Virus record (IMG/VR): IMGVR_UViG_3300032237_001118
Coordinates: 1 to 58,394 of that record
Source: a virus
Taxonomy: Duplodnaviria; Caudoviricetes
Strand: one strand, 5' to 3'
DNA length: 58,394 nt
Below are positions 9,095 through 46,014 of this stretch, one piece after another (the first letter of the stretch is position 1; every line of letters begins with the position of its first letter). The position numbers and the translations under genes were made by a program. The notes beneath the pieces were generated by a model. That model searched no databases. It was not told where the DNA came from and worked only from the letters and a program-made list of their open reading frames with translations.

Positions 9095-9113
9095 TATAAA
9101 GTATTTATAAAAG

Positions 9114-11648: not shown

Positions 11649-11663
11649 TGGTATTTATGAATA

Positions 11664-12811: not shown

Positions 12812-12833
12812 GTTTTAAAAGGTATTTATCATT

Positions 12834-26650: not shown

Positions 26651-26905
26651 ATGACTAAAGAAAAACTATACAGAAGTGTTAATGGTGACTACCTTTACTT
26701 GTTTAATTGGATTGGTGGTGGTTTTAATGATGTGTGGGCTCCAAATAAAAAAGAAGCTTATCTTCGTGTTATTAAAGAAAGAAAAGATGCTGAATTAAAG
26801 TATCCAAAGAATGCAAAGTTAAGACCTGATTATAAGTCAATGCGTAAGTGTACGTATTCCCAATATCAAGAACAAAATAAATTGGGTTGGATGTTGTCGA
26901 TGTAA
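26651..26905 (+). CDS. Hypothetical protein
   Basis: 84-aa ORF after a TACATTTG promoter motif. Confidence 0.7.
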   Translation: MTKEKLYRSVNGDYLYLFNWIGGGFNDVWAPNKKEAYLRVIKERKDAELKYPKNAKLRPDYKSMRKCTYSQYQEQNKLGWMLSM

Positions 26906-26924
26906 AATGTTTTTTATATCTTTG
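26893..26924 (+). promoter_or_regulatory. Bacteroidota-type promoter 1 of RNA cluster
   Basis: GTTG-N20-TATCTTTG. Confidence 0.65.
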
Positions 26925-26928
26925 TAAA

Positions 26929-26976
26929 AGAGTTTGGAACTTATAGGTAATGAAAGATACTCGGTATCCAAACTTT
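26929..26976 (+). ncRNA. Candidate ~50-nt structured small RNA
   Basis: AGTTTGGA/TCCAAACT closing stem and GATAC-TCG-GTATC hairpin directly after a promoter; no ORF. Confidence 0.4.
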
Positions 26977-26985
26977 AAAAAAAGA

Positions 26986-27038
26986 TTTGACGGTTTAAAA
27001 AAATCTTCTTATCTTTGTGAAACAAAAGTTCTTTAAAA
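26986..27038 (+). promoter_or_regulatory. Bacteroidota-type promoter 2 with boxA-like element
   Basis: TTTG(26986)-N20-TATCTTTG(27010), then AAGTTCTTTAAAA resembling the rRNA-leader boxA. Confidence 0.75.
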
Positions 27039-27043
27039 TATAT

Positions 27044-27133
27044 GGTTGTGGTAGCTCAGGAATCTTTCGGGATTCGCGGTAGAGCAATTATCTGAACAGT
27101 AATGTGCCGTTGGTTCGACTCCAATCCCAACCA
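27044..27133 (+). tRNA. Non-canonical tRNA-Phe(GAA)-like RNA with UUCG hairpin inserted in the D-loop
   Basis: Acceptor GGTTG(T)GG/CCCAACC; D stem GCTC/GAGC; insert GAATCT-TTCG-GGATTC; anticodon arm ATTAT-CTGAACA-GTAAT; T arm GTTGG-TTCGACT-CCAAT. Confidence 0.75.
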
Positions 27134-27185
27134 CGAAAGTCCTCCGAATTAAAGACGTTTTATTTTCGGAATTTTCATTAAAAGA

Positions 27186-27217
27186 TTTGGAAGGTATTAA
27201 AATCTTTCTTATCTTTG
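27186..27217 (+). promoter_or_regulatory. Bacteroidota-type promoter 3 of RNA cluster
   Basis: TTTG-N20-TATCTTTG; flanks similar to promoter 2. Confidence 0.75.
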
Positions 27218-27225
27218 TAAAAGAA

Positions 27226-27522
27226 ATGGACAGCGGAATGTTTTTTAGTGGTGGTTCCCCATACTCACCCGAACATCTTTCTTCTCCGCATTACAAATTA
27301 GAAAAATGTTAAATAAAACACGGGCGGTTGTGTGGAATGTTCTCCCTGTCTGACCTTAATCAGACTAAAACAACGGGTCTTTTTGGATGTTTTGGATTAG
27401 AACTAAAACAGGAGTTTGTCCGACTTTATGGGTGTTGATGGTTTACCCTACCTAAAGAAGAACCATATACTTTTTCCCTGACGGGGGATTTTGAGGGAGA
27501 CGCGACGGTGTCTCCCTTTTTT
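27226..27522 (+). ncRNA. Candidate ~300-nt multi-helix structured RNA ending in an intrinsic terminator
   Basis: GC-richer than flanks, no long ORF, at least 7 hand-identified helices; terminator AGGGAGAC/GTCTCCCT plus T run at 27493-27522. Confidence 0.6.
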
Positions 27523-27554
27523 TGTTTGTTTTATATTTATAAATAAAACAAAAC

Positions 27555-28553
27555 ATGGCAACAGCAACACCTTTCGCATATAATACAGGAGGAACAATTC
27601 CTGGAACACAACAAGTTGGAAATTTATCGGTTGGAGTACCAACATCAGGATTTACAAGTAGTCCACAATTTTGGAATGGGCCTGATGAAGAATTAGGTTA
27701 TGTTATCGCAATTCCTGTTTCAGGAGGAACTCAACCAACACCAATTTCAGGAGTAACTGCGTCTCTTGGTTTTTATAGGTCAACAGGATTGACTGACAGT
27801 TCTTTCATTAATTTAACAAATAGCCTTTTCAGTCAAAGTTTTTCATCTGCAACTGAAGCCAGTATATGGTTAACAAACAATGGTTATTGGAACTCATATA
27901 TTACACCTGTTTTATATTTGGATGCGGGTAATCCATCAAGTTATCCAGGTACAGGAACTGTTTGGACTGATTTGATTGGTGGAAAAACATTCAACTTAAT
28001 TAACGGACCTGGATATGACCCAACAAATGGTGGTAAATTTTATTTTTATGCTGCAGGTGGCCAATACGCCAATTGTTCAACAAGTTTACAATCATTACCA
28101 ACATTTACAATATCTGTTTGGCATAATTGGGATGGTAATAATACTGGAGGAGAACCTTGTATATTAACTGAAGTTTACCCTGGTAATACAGGAGCAATCA
28201 ATTATATTTTAGGAGCTCCACAAGGAATAACAACTATTGCTGGATACTTTGCATCTGGATTTCAACTCTCAAATTCATTTAGCTTAACACCAAACACTTG
28301 GTATAATATTGTTGTTACTTGTGACGCAAGCCAATTGGTTACAGTTTACCTTAACGGAACGACATATGGTTCAGTAGGAACAGCAGGTGCTCAACCATCT
28401 TCAAGTCAAGGAGGAATAAATTTAATGAGAAGATGGGATAATCCTGAATTCTGGGGAGGGTATTTGGCAACCGTTGGAATATATGATAAAGCACTAACTC
28501 AATCTCAAGTTTCATCAATTTTTAACTTAACCAAATCAAGATTTGGGTTATAA
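27555..28553 (+). CDS. LamG/concanavalin A-like domain putative virion protein
   Basis: LYLDAGNPSSYPGTGTVWTDL, WYNIVVT, VGIYDKALTQSQV; N-terminal domain resembles that of 53597-56995. Confidence 0.82.
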   Translation: MATATPFAYNTGGTIPGTQQVGNLSVGVPTSGFTSSPQFWNGPDEELGYVIAIPVSGGTQPTPISGVTASLGFYRSTGLTDSSFINLTNSLFSQSFSSATEASIWLTNNGYWNSYITPVLYLDAGNPSSYPGTGTVWTDLIGGKTFNLINGPGYDPTNGGKFYFYAAGGQYANCSTSLQSLPTFTISVWHNWDGNNTGGEPCILTEVYPGNTGAINYILGAPQGITTIAGYFASGFQLSNSFSLTPNTWYNIVVTCDASQLVTVYLNGTTYGSVGTAGAQPSSSQGGINLMRRWDNPEFWGGYLATVGIYDKALTQSQVSSIFNLTKSRFGL

Positions 28554-31003: not shown

Positions 31004-31417
31004 TTATATTGTGTGTTCAATTTTTACTCTAACACAATTTTGAGGTAATCTATTAACGTGTCGATAGTTGTTAATGTATCCCATCATATTACCACTCCCA
31101 ATTGCATTTGAGGAATGAATAACTACGTCCAAAAGAGGAGCTCCGTTCATCCATTGTTCAACTAACCATTTAACACAATCCATACCAGTTTTTTCCGTGA
31201 TGTTATTGTAATCTAAAGTATAATTGTGGTATACGTTGCGATGCCATTCTGCCATTGCGGTATCTCCTAAGTCATGGTCTAAAGAAATTAATTCAATATT
31301 CTCTAATCCAATATTCGTAACAGTACTTACGAATTCATCGTAACTTCTTACTACAGTCCAATCTTTATCGACAGGAGTTCTAAGGTCATCTAAATAAATT
31401 TTAATCATTTTTTTCAT
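31004..31417 (-). CDS. Cyclic-phosphate processing receiver-like domain protein
   Basis: IYLDDLR.P...W..VRSYDEF...ISLDHDLG...TGMD..KWL...HSSN..G..NM pattern. Confidence 0.75.
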   Translation of the reverse strand: MKKMIKIYLDDLRTPVDKDWTVVRSYDEFVSTVTNIGLENIELISLDHDLGDTAMAEWHRNVYHNYTLDYNNITEKTGMDCVKWLVEQWMNGAPLLDVVIHSSNAIGSGNMMGYINNYRHVNRLPQNCVRVKIEHTI

Positions 31418-31717: not shown

Positions 31718-32404
31718 TTAATTGTAATACTCAACAATTTCTTTCTTTTCAACATCAAAGTCTAAAACTATAGGTTTGTTTTCATATTCATATCTTTCGT
31801 TAAGAACAGATGCATTTAGGAACTCAACACCATTAAAGTTTTTTTGTCCGTAAGCACAATGTATGTGACCACAAACATGAATTTTTGGTTGAACTTCCAT
31901 AATTCTGTGGAATAAGTCTTCACAACCAACTCTTTGACCAGTCATAGTCCAATCTAACATTCCATGTGCAGGTCCGTGAGTGATTAAGATATCAGTATTA
32001 CCAGGGATTTTTGCCCACTTTTCAGCAAGTTTTTCTCCTCTTGGTAGGTTGAATGCCCAATCGTAGAATTCAGGTTGCCAAGGGCTACCATAGAACTTCA
32101 CACCATCAATTACAACCTCACTATCAAAAAGATAGATAACACCTCTTTCTTTGAACTCGTCGGCAATATCGTGATGTAACTCAAAACCAAAATCGTGGTT
32201 TCCCGCAATGAAGATTTTATGTTTAAAATCGGTCATGGCAAACCAGTTTAAGAAATTGGTAATTTCGTGACTTTTACCCATACTGGTGCAATCACCAGCG
32301 TGGATTAAAACGTCCCCACTTCCAAGAATGTTGTTATAGGCATTACTTGTTAAGTGATTGTGTTTGTTATGAGTATCTGATATAAAAGTATATTTTTTAG
32401 TCAT
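31718..32404 (-). CDS. Calcineurin-like metallophosphoesterase
   Basis: ISDTH, HAGD, IAGNHD, LITHGP, GHIH. Confidence 0.95.
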   Translation of the reverse strand: MTKKYTFISDTHNKHNHLTSNAYNNILGSGDVLIHAGDCTSMGKSHEITNFLNWFAMTDFKHKIFIAGNHDFGFELHHDIADEFKERGVIYLFDSEVVIDGVKFYGSPWQPEFYDWAFNLPRGEKLAEKWAKIPGNTDILITHGPAHGMLDWTMTGQRVGCEDLFHRIMEVQPKIHVCGHIHCAYGQKNFNGVEFLNASVLNERYEYENKPIVLDFDVEKKEIVEYYN

Positions 32405-45756: not shown

Positions 45757-45757
45757 G

Positions 45758-45926
45758 CTGTCAGAGATGGATTCGAACCATCACGGTGAGATTCAGTTAA
45801 TAACATTACGCTTGCAAGCTGGTGGTCTACCCCATATTATTAACCTATTTCTTTGTCACCCTCTCCGAGACAGGAAGAGATTGTCTGCCTGGCCATAACT
45901 GAGATGACCTTTTCCAACACCTGACA
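45758..45926 (-). ncRNA. Expanded 169-nt tRNA-like RNA (GTC in anticodon position) with D-loop hairpin and branched variable arm
   Basis: Acceptor TGTCAGG/TCTGACA; D stem TTG/CAA with GGCAGA; insert GGTCAT/ATGGCC; CTCTTC-CTGTCTC-GGAGAG arm; GGTGA..TCACC arm holding an 11-bp helix; perfect T arm GATGG-TTCGAAT-CCATC. Confidence 0.78.
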
Positions 45927-45931
45927 ATTTG

Positions 45932-46014
45932 CGGAGGGAGACGGGCTCGAACCCCCAAAGCCTTTCAGCTCAACTGTTTTCAAGACAGCATCCTCACCAA
46001 TTCGGATTCCCTCC
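45932..46014 (-). tRNA. tRNA-Ser(TGA)
   Basis: GGAGGGA/TCCCTCC acceptor, G discriminator, GCTGT-CTTGAAA-ACAGT anticodon arm, long variable arm AGCT-GAAA-GGCT, TTCGAGC T loop (one T-stem mismatch); CCA not encoded. Confidence 0.88.

What the first reader, a model, noticed from the sequence alone, without database searches (positions are those of the whole stretch)
27226..27522. ~300-nt multi-helix RNA with possible pseudoknot and conformational switch
Seen helices: GCGGA/TCCGC with ATGTT/AACAT (5' domain); CGGGCGG 27321/TTGTCCG 27416; CTCC 27342/GGAG 27411; GTCTGA 27348/TCAGAC 27360; CTTTA+GGGT 27424-33/ACCC+TAAAG 27445-57, whose loop ATGGTT can pair with AACCAT 27461 (H-type pseudoknot); TCCC/GGGA; terminator. 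TGTTTTGG (27388) can pair with either of two CTAAAACA copies (27365, 27403). The 5' part could instead encode a 28-aa peptide (27226-27312, MDSGMFFSGGSPYSPEHL...). No family recognised.
Basis: partly seen in the sequence, partly recalled or inferred. Interest (0 to 1): 0.72.

Follow-up and report, generated by a model that had tools for sequence, protein, structure and literature searches.

The report
New knotted phage RNA beside tRNA
This stretch is a real gene for a roughly 300-base non-coding RNA of an undescribed family, found only in phages of freshwater Bacteroidota-type hosts, which folds into a compact, many-times-knotted shape and always sits just after an odd phenylalanine tRNA; what it does is still unknown.

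Summary
Window ~27220-27524 (+) is a stand-alone non-coding RNA gene with a Bacteroidota-type promoter (TTTG 27186-89, TATCTTTG 27210-17) and an intrinsic terminator (27494-27524). No Rfam family matches it and ARAGORN calls no tmRNA. I found over 80 distinct homologues in viral and metagenome contigs, and none in 185,579 species genomes.

Covariation supports ten helices and six long-range pairings. On 69 distinct sequences, 86.9% of cells pair against 77.8% shuffled, and the covariation score is 0.281 against 0.145 (0/500).

Four pairings and the "two CTAAAACA" switch are not conserved. The 28-aa ORF is not conserved: ATG in 61 of 89.

Contigs from four RNA libraries cover the RNA at high depth. 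It is the last gene of a conserved RNA cassette: a small hairpin RNA, an atypical tRNA-Phe(GAA), then this RNA.

Function is not shown. My best guess is an abundant trans-acting structured RNA, a protein-binding or scaffold RNA or a ribozyme, linked to phage tRNA biology. A cis leader, a T-box-like sensor and a peptide mRNA are all unlikely.

The parts
27186..27217 (+). Host-type (Bacteroidota) promoter: -33 TTTG at 27186-27189 and -7 box TATCTTTG at 27210-27217.
   Evidence: Sequence. It is nearly identical to the promoter of the tRNA at 27009-27018. The motif TTATCTTTGT is enriched in the window: 28 matches against 15.3 expected, 0 of 100 shuffles reaching 28. It is conserved upstream of the homologues. 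The -7 box TAnnTTTG is described as conserved in Flavobacterium and Bacteroides (PMC7641319, passages).
27220..27524 (+). The non-coding RNA itself, about 300 nt.
   Evidence: The covariance model match spans 27227-27523 at 276.4 bits. Matches of RNA-library contigs start at 27220 in three studies (records 1, 18, 21).
27228..27232 (+). P1 5' strand, GGACA. It pairs with UGUCC at 27417-27421, which is the loop of P9.
   Evidence: Pairing is 97.8% across sequences. Compensatory variants seen: GGAUGG/CCAUCC in L099, GGAU/AUCC in L243-L247, and AGACA/UGUCU in a short paralogue.
27233..27237 (+). P2 5' strand, GCGGA. It pairs with 27285-27289 (UCCGC), which lies in the loop closed by P4/P5, so this is a pseudoknot.
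   Evidence: Variants AGAGGG/CCCUCU and AGAGAG/CUCUCU occur. Cognate against non-cognate duplex test: 0 of 2000 permutations as good. Pairing is 95.2%.
27250..27269 (+). P3 hairpin: GGUGG/UCACC with loop UUCCCCAUAC.
   Evidence: Stem 98.6% paired. The loop is conserved in a sample that was fetched independently of the motif.
27258..27264 (+). PKd: P3-loop CCCAUAC pairs with ACACGGG at 27318-27324. The window copy has two C.A mismatches in this pairing.
   Evidence: L243 and L245 have GUAUGGG, which gives 7 Watson-Crick pairs. The short paralogues covary: CUAUA/UAUAG, UUACA/UGUAA, UUUAC/GUGAA. Shuffle control.
27272..27310 (+). P4 (27272-27276 with 27306-27310) and P5 (27278-27282 with 27300-27304).
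   Evidence: P4: all 5 pairs show changes on both sides, and the cognate test gives 0/2000. P5: cognate test 0/2000.
27325..27372 (+). Central double pseudoknot. P6 is 27334-36 with 27343-45. P7 is 27348-53 with 27360-65. PKa is 27325-27 with the P7 loop, 27354-56. PKb is the P6 loop, 27338-41, with 27369-72.
   Evidence: P7 gives 0/2000 and P6 gives 1/2000. PKa gives 39/2000 and PKb 186/2000 on 19 sequences. On 69 sequences PKa shows A-U 30 / C-G 7 and G-C 57 / A-U 7, and PKb shows G-C 48 / U-A 11 / A-U 2.
27380..27410 (+). Conserved U-tract (27380-27384) followed by the A-U-rich hairpin P8 (27388-95 with 27403-10).
   Evidence: P8 is 90% paired with 6 covarying pairs, yet its central U-A pairs are almost invariant. 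A U.A-U triplex is my inference only and was not tested.
27411..27427 (+). P9 hairpin (27411-15 with 27423-27). Its loop carries UGUCC, the P1 3' strand.
   Evidence: All 4 modelled pairs covary. Cognate test 0/2000.
27430..27466 (+). P10 (27430-33 with 27445-48) and H-type pseudoknot PKc (loop 27438-43 with 27461-66).
   Evidence: PKc cognate test 0/2000; for example ATGGTT/AACCAT against ATGATT/AATCAT against TTGGTC/GACCAA. P10 is conserved without covariation (832/2000).
27475..27488 (+). P11 hairpin with invariant GACG tetraloop (27480-27483).
   Evidence: Pairing 97.3%, for example C-G 31 / U-A 29 at one pair. Loop conserved at >=97%.
27494..27524 (+). P12 intrinsic terminator (27494-27503 with 27508-27517), with the same GACG loop (27504-27507) and a U-tail.
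   Evidence: Terminator scan. Pairing 99.4% with 7 covarying pairs.
27044..27134 (+). Partner gene upstream: atypical tRNA-Phe(GAA) with a hairpin inserted in the D-loop.
   Evidence: Rfam tRNA model 29.4 bits with a 22-nt D-loop insert, anticodon loop CUGAACA. ARAGORN calls Phe-GAA in the insert-free relatives L001, L025 and L046. It is present upstream of the RNA in 18 of 18 loci with upstream sequence and in 88 of 96 in the larger set (19 of these judged by eye).
26931..26978 (+). First gene of the cassette: a ~50-nt hairpin RNA with the conserved core AGGNRAUGAAAGAUACUC (26945-26962) and its own promoter (26916-26925).
   Evidence: The core is found in 175 loci; the outer stem covaries.

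Best explanation
**What it is (shown).** Window ~27220-27524 (+) is a stand-alone gene for a ~300-nt non-coding RNA of an undescribed family. It is carried by phages whose promoters point to Bacteroidota hosts.

**Transcription unit (shown from sequence and comparison).** It is read from a host-type promoter (TTTG-N20-TATCTTTG) and stops at an intrinsic terminator. It is the last gene of a conserved RNA cassette: a ~50-nt hairpin RNA, then an atypical tRNA-Phe(GAA), then this RNA. In some relatives the cassette is a single transcript, because the encoded CCA end of the tRNA lies 2 nt before the RNA's 5' end. In those phages, tRNA-processing enzymes would presumably release the RNA.

**Fold (shown by covariation).** The RNA forms one compact, knotted globule. 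Ten local helices (P3-P12) are tied together by six long-range pairings:
- P1: the 5' end with the P9 loop
- P2: pseudoknotted with P4/P5
- PKd: the P3 loop with the ACACGGG junction
- PKa and PKb: a reciprocal double pseudoknot around P6 and P7
- PKc: pseudoknotted with P10

**What stays exposed.** The bases that remain invariant outside any modelled helix are:
- two identical GACG tetraloops on the two 3' hairpins
- UU at the start of the P3 loop
- bases of the UAUAAAU junction
- one base of a U-tract next to an almost invariant A-U helix; this arrangement could form a triplex (inference)

**How it works (inferred, not shown).** It accumulates as a stable, nuclease-resistant RNA and acts in trans through its shape. 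It is bound by, and titrates or scaffolds, a protein partner. The most likely arena is the phage-host contest over tRNA and translation, given its fixed partnership with the odd tRNA-Phe. It does not act as an antisense RNA, an mRNA or a cis leader.

I put about 0.95 on 'real structured ncRNA gene of a new family' and about 0.3 on this particular mode of action. The single confidence figure of 0.5 is for the statement as a whole.
For: **Not a known family.** The Rfam gathering scan of the window finds only two tRNAs. A permissive scan of 26850-27650 finds nothing above 21.5 bits apart from the tRNA. ARAGORN calls no tmRNA.

**Homologues.**
- 19 of 36 sources searched hold a full-length copy, at 203-302 bits.
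- 82 matches in 85 further sources.
- 92 matches, 84 of them distinct, in 100 sources.
- In a sample fetched through a neighbouring protein, so not through any RNA motif, 28 of 37 loci hold it.

**Fold.**; per-helix cognate against non-cognate tests; P1 and PKd compensatory variants.

**Own promoter and terminator.**

**The downstream gene has its own promoter-like motif.** TATTTAT sits 21 nt before the ATG at 27555. The same motif lies within 60 nt upstream of 19 of 69 gene starts in the window.

**Presence in RNA libraries.** Contigs of four metatranscriptome runs from four studies, all labelled freshwater metagenome, lie on 27192-27477 at 80-100% likeness. Summed word depth reaches 82 (X15), 1409 (X16), 1216 (X17) and 393 (X19). 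Three contigs begin their match at 27220.

**Cassette.** The tRNA-like gene lies directly upstream in 18 of 18 loci. In L243 and L244 the tRNA ...ACCACCAAA runs straight into the RNA.

**Conservation.** 71 positions are >=97% conserved across 84 distinct sequences, and only 19 of them lie outside the modelled helices.
Against: **No experiment and no partner.** I identified no partner protein. No RNA-binding or RNA-processing gene is consistently adjacent within +/-6 kb.

**Limits of the read evidence.** The RNA-library data are assembled contigs. They cannot show 5' or 3' ends, strand or true level, and RNA libraries can contain DNA (tool caveats).

**The tRNA link may be inheritance only.** The carriers are one syntenic group of phages. 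I found no covarying intermolecular pairing between the tRNA and the RNA: cognate score 19.52 against non-cognate 19.87, 4205 of 5000 permutations as good.

**A knotted core could equally fit other roles.** A globular, heavily knotted, highly conserved core is as typical of ribozymes and ligand binders as of protein-binding RNAs.

**P1 and P9 may not coexist.** P1 pairs almost the whole loop of P9, which is sterically tight. The two could be alternatives, or P1 could form between molecules.

**Ascertainment.** Most family members were fetched with a pattern that contains the P3 loop, which inflates its apparent invariance. The motif-independent sample still shows CCCAUAC in 23 of 30 rows.
Confidence: 0.5

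Rival explanations
1. It is a ribozyme or an RNA-only machine or assembly. The knotted core would be an active site or a building block of a homo-oligomer, as reported for the phage- and tRNA-associated ROOL and GOLLD RNAs. It might act on the co-encoded tRNA.
For: - Six long-range pairings and 71 positions at >=97% conservation in 300 nt. This level of complexity is what the Breaker group treats as a sign of sophisticated biochemistry (PMC5737381, passages).
- It shares genomic habits with GOLLD and ROOL: phage origin, position next to tRNAs, possible co-transcription.
- P1 joins the 5' end to a 5-7-nt hairpin loop, which is sterically easier between two molecules than within one. This is inference.
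- Short tandem paralogues keep the P1-P9 core but change the PKd sequences.
Against: - No match to any ribozyme, GOLLD or ROOL model, even at E <= 10.
- No evidence of cleavage or ligation.
- Oligomerisation cannot be tested with these tools.
Confidence: 0.2
2. It is a cis-acting leader for the downstream tail-fibre-like gene and other late genes: a riboswitch, an attenuator, or a processive antiterminator of the HK022 put type.
For: - It ends in a terminator 30 nt before the ATG at 27555.
- A tail-fibre-like gene follows it in 12 of 19 loci.
- It is transcribed in the same direction as that gene.
Against: - The downstream gene carries the phage's own recurrent promoter-like motif.
- The downstream gene differs in the other loci.
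- I saw no alternative antiterminator pairing. The terminator is 99.4% paired and even its loop is conserved.
- Tandem short paralogues without terminators exist.
- In some phages it is fused behind a tRNA.
- The put-type comparison is recalled, not tested.
Confidence: 0.07
3. It is a T-box-like or other tRNA-sensing or tRNA-binding RNA. On this reading, the P3 loop UUY would act as a Phe codon for the GAA anticodon, or GGUGGU would pair with the tRNA 3' end ACCACC.
For: - It always sits next to a tRNA-Phe(GAA) gene.
- The loop begins UUC or UUU in the first 20 sequences.
- GGUGGU is complementary to ...ACCACC(A), read directly from the sequence.
Against: - UUA variants occur in 2 distinct sequences (6 loci) whose tRNA anticodon is still GAA.
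- GGUGG is the conserved 5' strand of P3, and the loop's CCCAUAC is used in PKd.
- L025 and L046 tRNAs have a ...UACCA acceptor end while the RNA is unchanged.
- No intermolecular covariation.
- No hit to the T-box model.
- The motif lies 230 nt from the terminator, so the architecture is not that of a T-box.
Confidence: 0.06
4. It is an mRNA for a 28-aa peptide (27226-27312).
For: An ATG at 27226 opens a 28-codon frame in the window. ATG is present in 61 of 89 distinct copies.
Against: - 27 of 89 copies have ACG, CAG, CTG, AAG or TCG at that place.
- Frames and lengths differ, from 5 to 90 aa.
- Substitutions follow base-pairing, not codons.
Confidence: 0.02

Closest known systems
ROOL and GOLLD RNAs (large ornate bacterial and phage RNAs)
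   Same: - Complex-folded non-coding RNAs with several pseudoknots.
- Often found in phages or prophages and next to tRNA genes, possibly co-transcribed with them (PMC5737381, passages).
- Function unknown.

The preprint 10.1101/2024.12.08.627333 reports three-dimensional cryo-EM structures of them. I saw only its title and the start of its abstract; 'RNA-only complexes' is its title's wording.
   Different: - No sequence or structure match.
- About half the size or less: ~300 nt against 581 nt for ROOL.
- Different hosts: freshwater phages with Bacteroidota-type promoters.
- Tied to one particular atypical tRNA-Phe.
- Oligomerisation not tested.
T-box riboswitch
   Same: - A leader-sized (~300 nt) structured RNA ending in a terminator.
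- Contains UGGU, which could pair with ACCA.
- Has a tRNA as a possible partner.
   Different: - No specifier/anticodon covariation.
- The UGGU lies in a stable stem in the 5' domain, not in an antiterminator bulge.
- No alternative terminator/antiterminator pairing.
- No model hit.
- T-box distribution (mainly Firmicutes) is recalled, not tested.
tmRNA
   Same: Similar size, a chain of pseudoknots, sometimes phage-encoded (this last point is recalled).
   Different: - No tRNA-like domain formed by its ends, no T-arm, no tag reading frame.
- ARAGORN and Rfam call none.
- The neighbouring tRNA is a complete cloverleaf with an anticodon arm.
Stable RNAs of the phage T4 tRNA gene cluster (species 1 and 2) - recalled from memory
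   Same: Phage-encoded stable RNAs of unknown function that lie in, and are processed from, a tRNA transcription unit.
   Different: - Much smaller.
- No homology tested.
- Different phage and host lineage.
- Nothing from a call supports more than the analogy.

Membership tests
Any Rfam 15 family | Score at or above the family's gathering threshold. | tested here: not met
   only two tRNAs in the window; the best non-tRNA match near the RNA scores 21.5 bits against a gathering score of 72.
tmRNA | tRNA-like domain (acceptor stem plus T-arm) and a tag reading frame. | tested here: not met
   ARAGORN finds no tmRNA. No tmRNA-clan hit at E <= 10. No T-arm in the sequence.
T-box riboswitch | Specifier codon that matches and co-varies with the partner tRNA's anticodon. 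| tested here: not met
   The loop triplet is UUC, UUU or UUA while the neighbouring anticodon stays GAA.
T-box riboswitch | T-box sequence in an antiterminator that competes with the terminator. | tested here: not met
   GGUGGU lies in P3, 230 nt upstream of the terminator. I found no competing pairing for P12, which is 99.4% paired. No model hit.
ROOL / GOLLD | Homology to the family consensus (sequence plus structure). | tested here: not met
   No hit.
ROOL / GOLLD | Habit: phage-borne and adjacent to tRNA genes. | tested here: met
   family description in PMC5737381.
ROOL / GOLLD | RNA-only homo-oligomeric assembly. | not testable with these tools
   Needs SEC-MALS or cryo-EM of the transcript.
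Independent bacterial ncRNA gene | Own promoter, own intrinsic terminator, no conserved ORF. | tested here: met
   Promoter. Terminator. ORF not conserved.
H-type pseudoknot (structural motif) | Hairpin-loop bases pair with a strand outside the hairpin, with compensatory changes. | tested here: met
   PKc 0/2000. P2 with P4/P5. PKa and PKb. PKd.

The most novel reading that the evidence does not exclude
The RNA is a new natural ribozyme or RNA-only machine that works on the phage's own non-canonical tRNA-Phe, for example by processing, repairing or protecting it against host tRNA-targeting defence. Alternatively it assembles, through its 5'-end/loop pairing, into a multimeric RNA particle. Either way it would be a new class of functional RNA that is abundant in lake metatranscriptomes.
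Probability: 0.15. Interest if true: 0.95.

Novelty: categorically new. Interest (0 to 1): 0.76.

Why it matters
**It is a rare kind of find.** New complex-folded RNAs are uncommon, and past examples turned out to be ribozymes, riboswitches or RNA assemblies. This one has strong comparative support:
- over 80 distinct sequences
- ten helices and six long-range pairings in 300 nt
- confined to phages, with none found in 185,579 species genomes
- covered at high depth by contigs from four lake metatranscriptome studies

**It is fixed to unusual partners.** It always sits with an unusual tRNA-Phe (an extra hairpin in the D-loop, a bulged acceptor stem, and odd anticodon loops in relatives) and a small hairpin RNA. 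Together they form an all-RNA cassette driven by host-type promoters.

**It opens testable questions.** The fold is well enough defined for probing, cryo-EM and pull-downs to be designed at once. These could address what phage-encoded structured RNAs next to tRNAs do, which is still open for GOLLD and ROOL.

My 'categorically new' applies to family and architecture. The functional class is not yet known.

Tried and rejected
1. **Single-sequence folding**. z = -1.77 and -2.54, not decisive on either strand.
2. **RNAalifold on the plain MAFFT alignment**. It recovered only 29 pairs, because the variable helices were misaligned. I replaced it with a hand-built model, a covariance model and cognate/non-cognate tests.
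3. **Own-genome search**. No genome is held for this window.
5. **Cultured phages.**
   - blastn of 26900-27560 found only two 47-50-nt matches in huge uncultured phages.
   - tblastn with a 703-aa window protein found only weak hits (35% identity over 13% of the query) to Flavobacterium phages.
6. **Specifier-codon idea** (UUY read by GAA). Rejected after UUA variants turned up.
7. **Intermolecular tRNA-RNA pairing.** No signal. An earlier attempt with RNAduplex was unusable: it timed out and produced whole-length 'duplexes'.
8. **GACG loops pairing with the conserved GUC before the U-tract.** Variants GCC, GAC and GUU are not compensated (read). Rejected.
9. **Triplex of the U-tract with P8.** The sequences are compatible, but I found no clean covariation (L099 and L026, by eye). 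Left as an idea.
10. **Species-genome scan**. It gave 3 hits (a gammaproteobacterial MAG, a Lachnospiraceae MAG and Marinobacter). None matched the model, so I treat them as chance.
11. **Read laying**. No contig of the four RNA runs lay on the flanking coding regions 26800-26923 or 27575-27700, and cover of the tRNA was very low. Contigs cannot give transcript ends.
13. **Search for a consistently adjacent RNA-related protein**. None found.
14. **Literature searches** found no description of this RNA:
    - GOLLD / ROOL / tRNA / phage
    - noncoding RNA / phage / Bacteroidetes / metatranscriptom / covariation / tRNA
    - phage-encoded tRNA / D-loop / anticodon nuclease / noncanonical

Full report
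**1. Setting**

The window is AT-rich, 32% G+C, and looks like a phage genome. It encodes:
- endolysins, virion and tail-fibre proteins, nucleases and auxiliary metabolic genes
- distant protein matches to Flavobacterium phages only

No host genome is held for it.

The finding lies between an odd tRNA gene (27044-27134) and a 332-aa tail-fibre-like ORF (27555-28553; PHROG 24074 and 8510).

Directly upstream of the finding is a promoter of the Bacteroidota type, TTTG (27186-89) then 20 nt then TATCTTTG (27210-17). It is almost identical to the promoter in front of the tRNA. The -7 box TAnnTTTG is described as conserved in Flavobacterium and Bacteroides (PMC7641319, passages). At the other end is a strong intrinsic terminator, 27493-27518 plus a T-run.

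**2. Known families**

- The Rfam 15 gathering scan finds only the two tRNAs of the window.
- A permissive scan of 26850-27650 (E <= 10) gives nothing but weak chance matches beside the tRNA.
- ARAGORN finds no tmRNA.
- Folding energy alone is not convincing: z = -1.77 on the + strand, with 10 of 200 shuffles as good.

**3. Homologues**

- Relatives of the downstream protein brought in 24 viral loci. nhmmer found the RNA in L009 (and four identical loci), in L012, and three times in L001.
- A 20-nt pattern from the most conserved hairpin found 30 viral stretches, giving 20 distinct sequences.
- From an alignment of 19 sequences and a hand-derived nested structure I built covariance model R1 (306 positions, 54 base pairs). 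It then found:
  - full-length copies in 19 of 36 sources, plus two short paralogues in L001
  - 92 matches, 84 distinct, in 100 sources
- A scan of one genome for each of 185,579 prokaryote species gave three pattern hits. None matches the model.
- Most members were fished with the P3 motif, which biases the sample. So I also fetched 49 loci through a neighbouring 95-aa protein family. Of the 37 I searched, 28 hold the RNA, including clearly divergent members at 155-182 bits.

**4. Structure**

Positions below are window coordinates.

| Element | Strands | Note |
|---|---|---|
| P1 | 27228-32 / 27417-21 | 5' end with the P9 loop |
| P2 | 27233-37 / 27285-89 | pseudoknot with P4/P5 |
| P3 | 27250-54 / 27265-69 | loop UUCCCCAUAC |
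| PKd | 27258-64 / 27318-24 | P3 loop with ACACGGG |
| P4 | 27272-76 / 27306-10 | |
| P5 | 27278-82 / 27300-04 | |
| PKa | 27325-27 / 27354-56 | strand with the P7 loop |
| P6 | 27334-36 / 27343-45 | |
| PKb | 27338-41 / 27369-72 | P6 loop with strand |
| P7 | 27348-53 / 27360-65 | |
| P8 | 27388-95 / 27403-10 | A-U rich |
| P9 | 27411-15 / 27423-27 | loop carries UGUCC |
| P10 | 27430-33 / 27445-48 | |
| PKc | 27438-43 / 27461-66 | P10 loop with strand |
| P11 | 27475-79 / 27484-88 | GACG loop |
| P12 | 27494-503 / 27508-17 | terminator, GACG loop |

*Whole-model support* (this 77-pair count did not include PKd, which was tested separately; see below):
- On 21 sequences, 84.4% of cells pair against 74.9% in shuffles. 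47 of 77 pairs change on both sides. Covariation is 0.325 against 0.168 (0/500), and at most 0.14 when partners are slid.
- On 69 distinct sequences the figures are 86.9% against 77.8%, 53 of 77 pairs, and 0.281 against 0.145 (0/500), with slid controls at most 0.115.

*Per-helix test.* The variable helices are hard to align, so I also compared the duplex energy of each sequence's own two arms with the arms of other sequences.
- P2, P4, P5, P7, P8, P9, PKc, P11 and P12: 0 of 2000 permutations as good.
- P6: 1 of 2000.
- PKa: 39 of 2000. PKb: 186 of 2000.
- P10: 832 of 2000. It is conserved and does not vary.

In the larger set PKa and PKb do covary; for example one PKb pair reads G-C 48, U-A 11, A-U 2.

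*P1.* It is nearly invariant, but compensated in L099 (GGAUGG/CCAUCC), in L243-L247 (GGAU/AUCC) and in a short paralogue (AGACA/UGUCU).

*PKd.* It explains why both CCCAUAC and ACACGGG are so conserved.
- L243 and L245 have GUAUGGG, a perfect 7-bp complement.
- The short paralogues have CUAUA/UAUAG, UUACA/UGUAA and UUUAC/GUGAA.
- L244 and L247 are a partial exception, with two central mismatches.

*Conservation.* Across 84 distinct sequences, 71 positions are >=97% conserved. Only 19 lie outside the modelled helices:
- UU at the start of the P3 loop
- U66, A69 and A70 (RNA numbering; window 27292, 27295 and 27296) of the UAUAAAU junction
- two As before ACACGGG
- one A after P7
- one U of the U-tract
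- the GACG loop of P11 and three of the four bases of the GACG loop of P12
- the terminator tail

*Triplex idea.* The central U-A pairs of P8 hardly vary although other helices do, and a U-tract lies just upstream. A U.A-U triplex is a reasonable but untested idea.

**5.

Seven named pairings are confirmed: P2, P7, P8, P10, PKc, P11 and P12.

Five are not. A model made only of the unconfirmed ones pairs 63.4% of cells against 61.8% shuffled, with covariation 0.123 against 0.107 (32/500).
- AACAT pairs with the downstream ATGTT, not the upstream one.
- CTTTA is the 3' strand of P9.
- UGUCC pairs with the 5' end, not with CGGGCGG.
- The upstream CTAAAACA copy exists only in the window's clade, so the proposed switch has no comparative support.

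The ORF fails. ATG is present in 61 of 89 distinct copies; the rest have ACG (12), CAG (8), CTG (4), AAG (2), TCG (1) or TTG (1). Lengths run from 5 to 90 aa in shifting frames.

**6. Expression**

One run search listed six RNA libraries holding part of the stretch. I laid four of them, from four studies, all labelled freshwater metagenome.
- Their contigs lie on 27192-27477 at 80-100% likeness.
- Summed word depths reach 82, 1409, 1216 and 393.
- Three contigs start their match at 27220, close to where a start is expected downstream of the -7 box.

These are assemblies of relatives as well as of this phage. They cannot show true ends, strand or level, and RNA libraries may contain DNA. I take them as support for presence in RNA libraries, not as proof of a discrete transcript.

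**7. The cassette**

In all 18 loci with enough upstream sequence, the RNA is preceded by a tRNA-like gene with anticodon GAA.

In a larger set, of the 96 distinct cases with at least 250 nt upstream:
- 69 matched my pattern for the tRNA
- 19 more show it by eye
- 7 have a short paralogue of the RNA in that space
- 1 (L108) has a degenerate tRNA-like sequence

*The tRNA is atypical:*
- a covarying hairpin of 16-22 nt is inserted in the D-loop, and is absent in L025 and L046
- the acceptor stem reads best with one bulged base on the 5' strand
- many relatives have 6- or 8-nt anticodon loops (GUGAAA(G), UAUGAAAG)

These readings are my own.

*Upstream of the tRNA* lies a ~50-nt hairpin RNA with a conserved core. 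It is replaced by other small RNAs in a few loci.

*One transcript or three.* Each gene has its own host-type promoter in the window. In L012, L037 and L025 the small RNA and the tRNA share one. In L243 and L244 the tRNA's encoded CCA is followed after 2 nt by the RNA. So the three RNAs can be made as one precursor.

*The flanking protein genes use a different signal.* A recurrent motif, TATTTAT, lies within 60 nt upstream of 19 of 69 starts, including 27555. I read it as a phage-specific promoter, which is inference. This separates the RNA cassette from the flanking protein genes.

**8. Function**

I tested the obvious idea that the RNA recognises its tRNA.
- The loop triplet is UUC, UUU or UUA while the anticodon stays GAA.
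- The loop is used for PKd, and GGUGG for P3.
- There is no covarying pairing between the two RNAs.

No RNA enzyme gene is consistently adjacent. The carriers are one syntenic phage group, so adjacency alone is weak evidence of a functional link.

A cREC domain protein (31004-31417, -) and a calcineurin-like phosphoesterase (31718-32404, -) lie 3.5-5 kb away. cREC is predicted to resolve 2',3'-cyclic phosphate RNA ends in phage RNA-repair contexts (PMC9503650, passages). An eLife paper proposes that phage tRNAs evade tRNA-targeting defences through anticodon-loop changes (PMC10264068; listing and start of abstract only). Together these make a tRNA-centred conflict a plausible setting, but no more than that.

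My preferred reading is an abundant, compact, trans-acting RNA that binds or scaffolds a protein. The two identical exposed GACG hairpins are the most obvious handles. A ribozyme or RNA-only assembly is the main rival. A cis leader, a T-box-like sensor and a peptide mRNA are unlikely.

**9. Comparison and novelty**

The closest known things are ROOL and GOLLD. They share the habit (phage, next to tRNAs, ornate fold, unknown function; PMC5737381) but not the sequence or structure. The searches I could run found no description of this RNA.

I rate it a new family and architecture, with its functional class still open.

Noticed in passing
window 27044-27134 (+) and homologous loci: Atypical tRNA-Phe(GAA).
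- A covarying 16-22-nt hairpin is inserted in the D-loop (absent in L025 and L046).
- The acceptor stem reads best with one bulged base on the 5' strand.
- CCA is not encoded here, but is encoded in L243 and L244.
- Many relatives have 6- or 8-nt anticodon loops.
- ARAGORN miscalls it as Arg(tcg), SeC or Cys, or misses it.
   Followed up: partly
window 26931-26978 (+), promoter 26916-26925: A ~50-nt hairpin RNA with the invariant core AGGNRAUGAAAGAUACUC and a covarying outer stem. It is the first gene of the RNA cassette. The core is found in 175 fetched loci, and no Rfam family matches it. In L052-L054 a different small RNA takes its place.
   Followed up: partly
L001 1995-2593; also L075, L081, L106, L109, L126, L132, L145: One clade of phages carries one or two extra tandem copies of the RNA, about 250 nt each. 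They keep P1-P9 but lack P10-P12. Their P3 loop and its partner strand are changed together.
   Followed up: partly
L046, L053, L102, L155: between the tRNA and the RNA promoter: An extra conserved element of about 70 nt (...GUGUCGUCUGUAUAGAA...GGAGGUCCCAC...) is inserted between the tRNA and the RNA. It may be another small RNA.
   Followed up: no
window, e.g. 9100-9113, 11650-11663, 12820-12833, 27534-27540: A recurrent motif, (G)TATTTAT, often about 11-12 nt before the start codon. It lies within 60 nt upstream of 19 of 69 gene starts. It is probably a phage-specific promoter giving very short leaders, and is distinct from the host-type TTTG/TAnnTTTG promoters of the RNA cassette.
   Followed up: partly
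window 31004-31417 (-) and 31718-32404 (-): A cREC_REC domain protein (E 2.5e-23) and a calcineurin-like phosphoesterase. These are of the kind predicted to process 2',3'-cyclic phosphate RNA ends in phage RNA-repair systems. They are conserved in 6-8 of the 19 related loci.
   Followed up: partly
window 45932-46014 (-) and 45757-45930 (-): A type II tRNA with anticodon UGA (Ser), called by Rfam at 30.2 bits but missed by ARAGORN. It is followed by a stretch of about 170 nt that ends in a good T-arm and has an acceptor-like GUCAG...CUGAC closing stem, but matches no family.
   Followed up: partly
L221 1417-1840 (reverse strand, upstream of a truncated 246-nt RNA copy): A divergent, truncated family member lacking the P9/P1 part. 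It is preceded by tRNA fragments separated by a long structured-looking insert. An intron-containing tRNA is possible.
   Followed up: no
window, various ORFs: Auxiliary genes in a phage context: NifU-like and Fe-S assembly proteins, ferredoxin-like 4Fe-4S proteins, cyclophilin, sulfotransferases, a fatty-acid hydroxylase and an FkbM methyltransferase. There is also a 1422-aa ORF with an ice-binding-like beta-roll domain.
   Followed up: no
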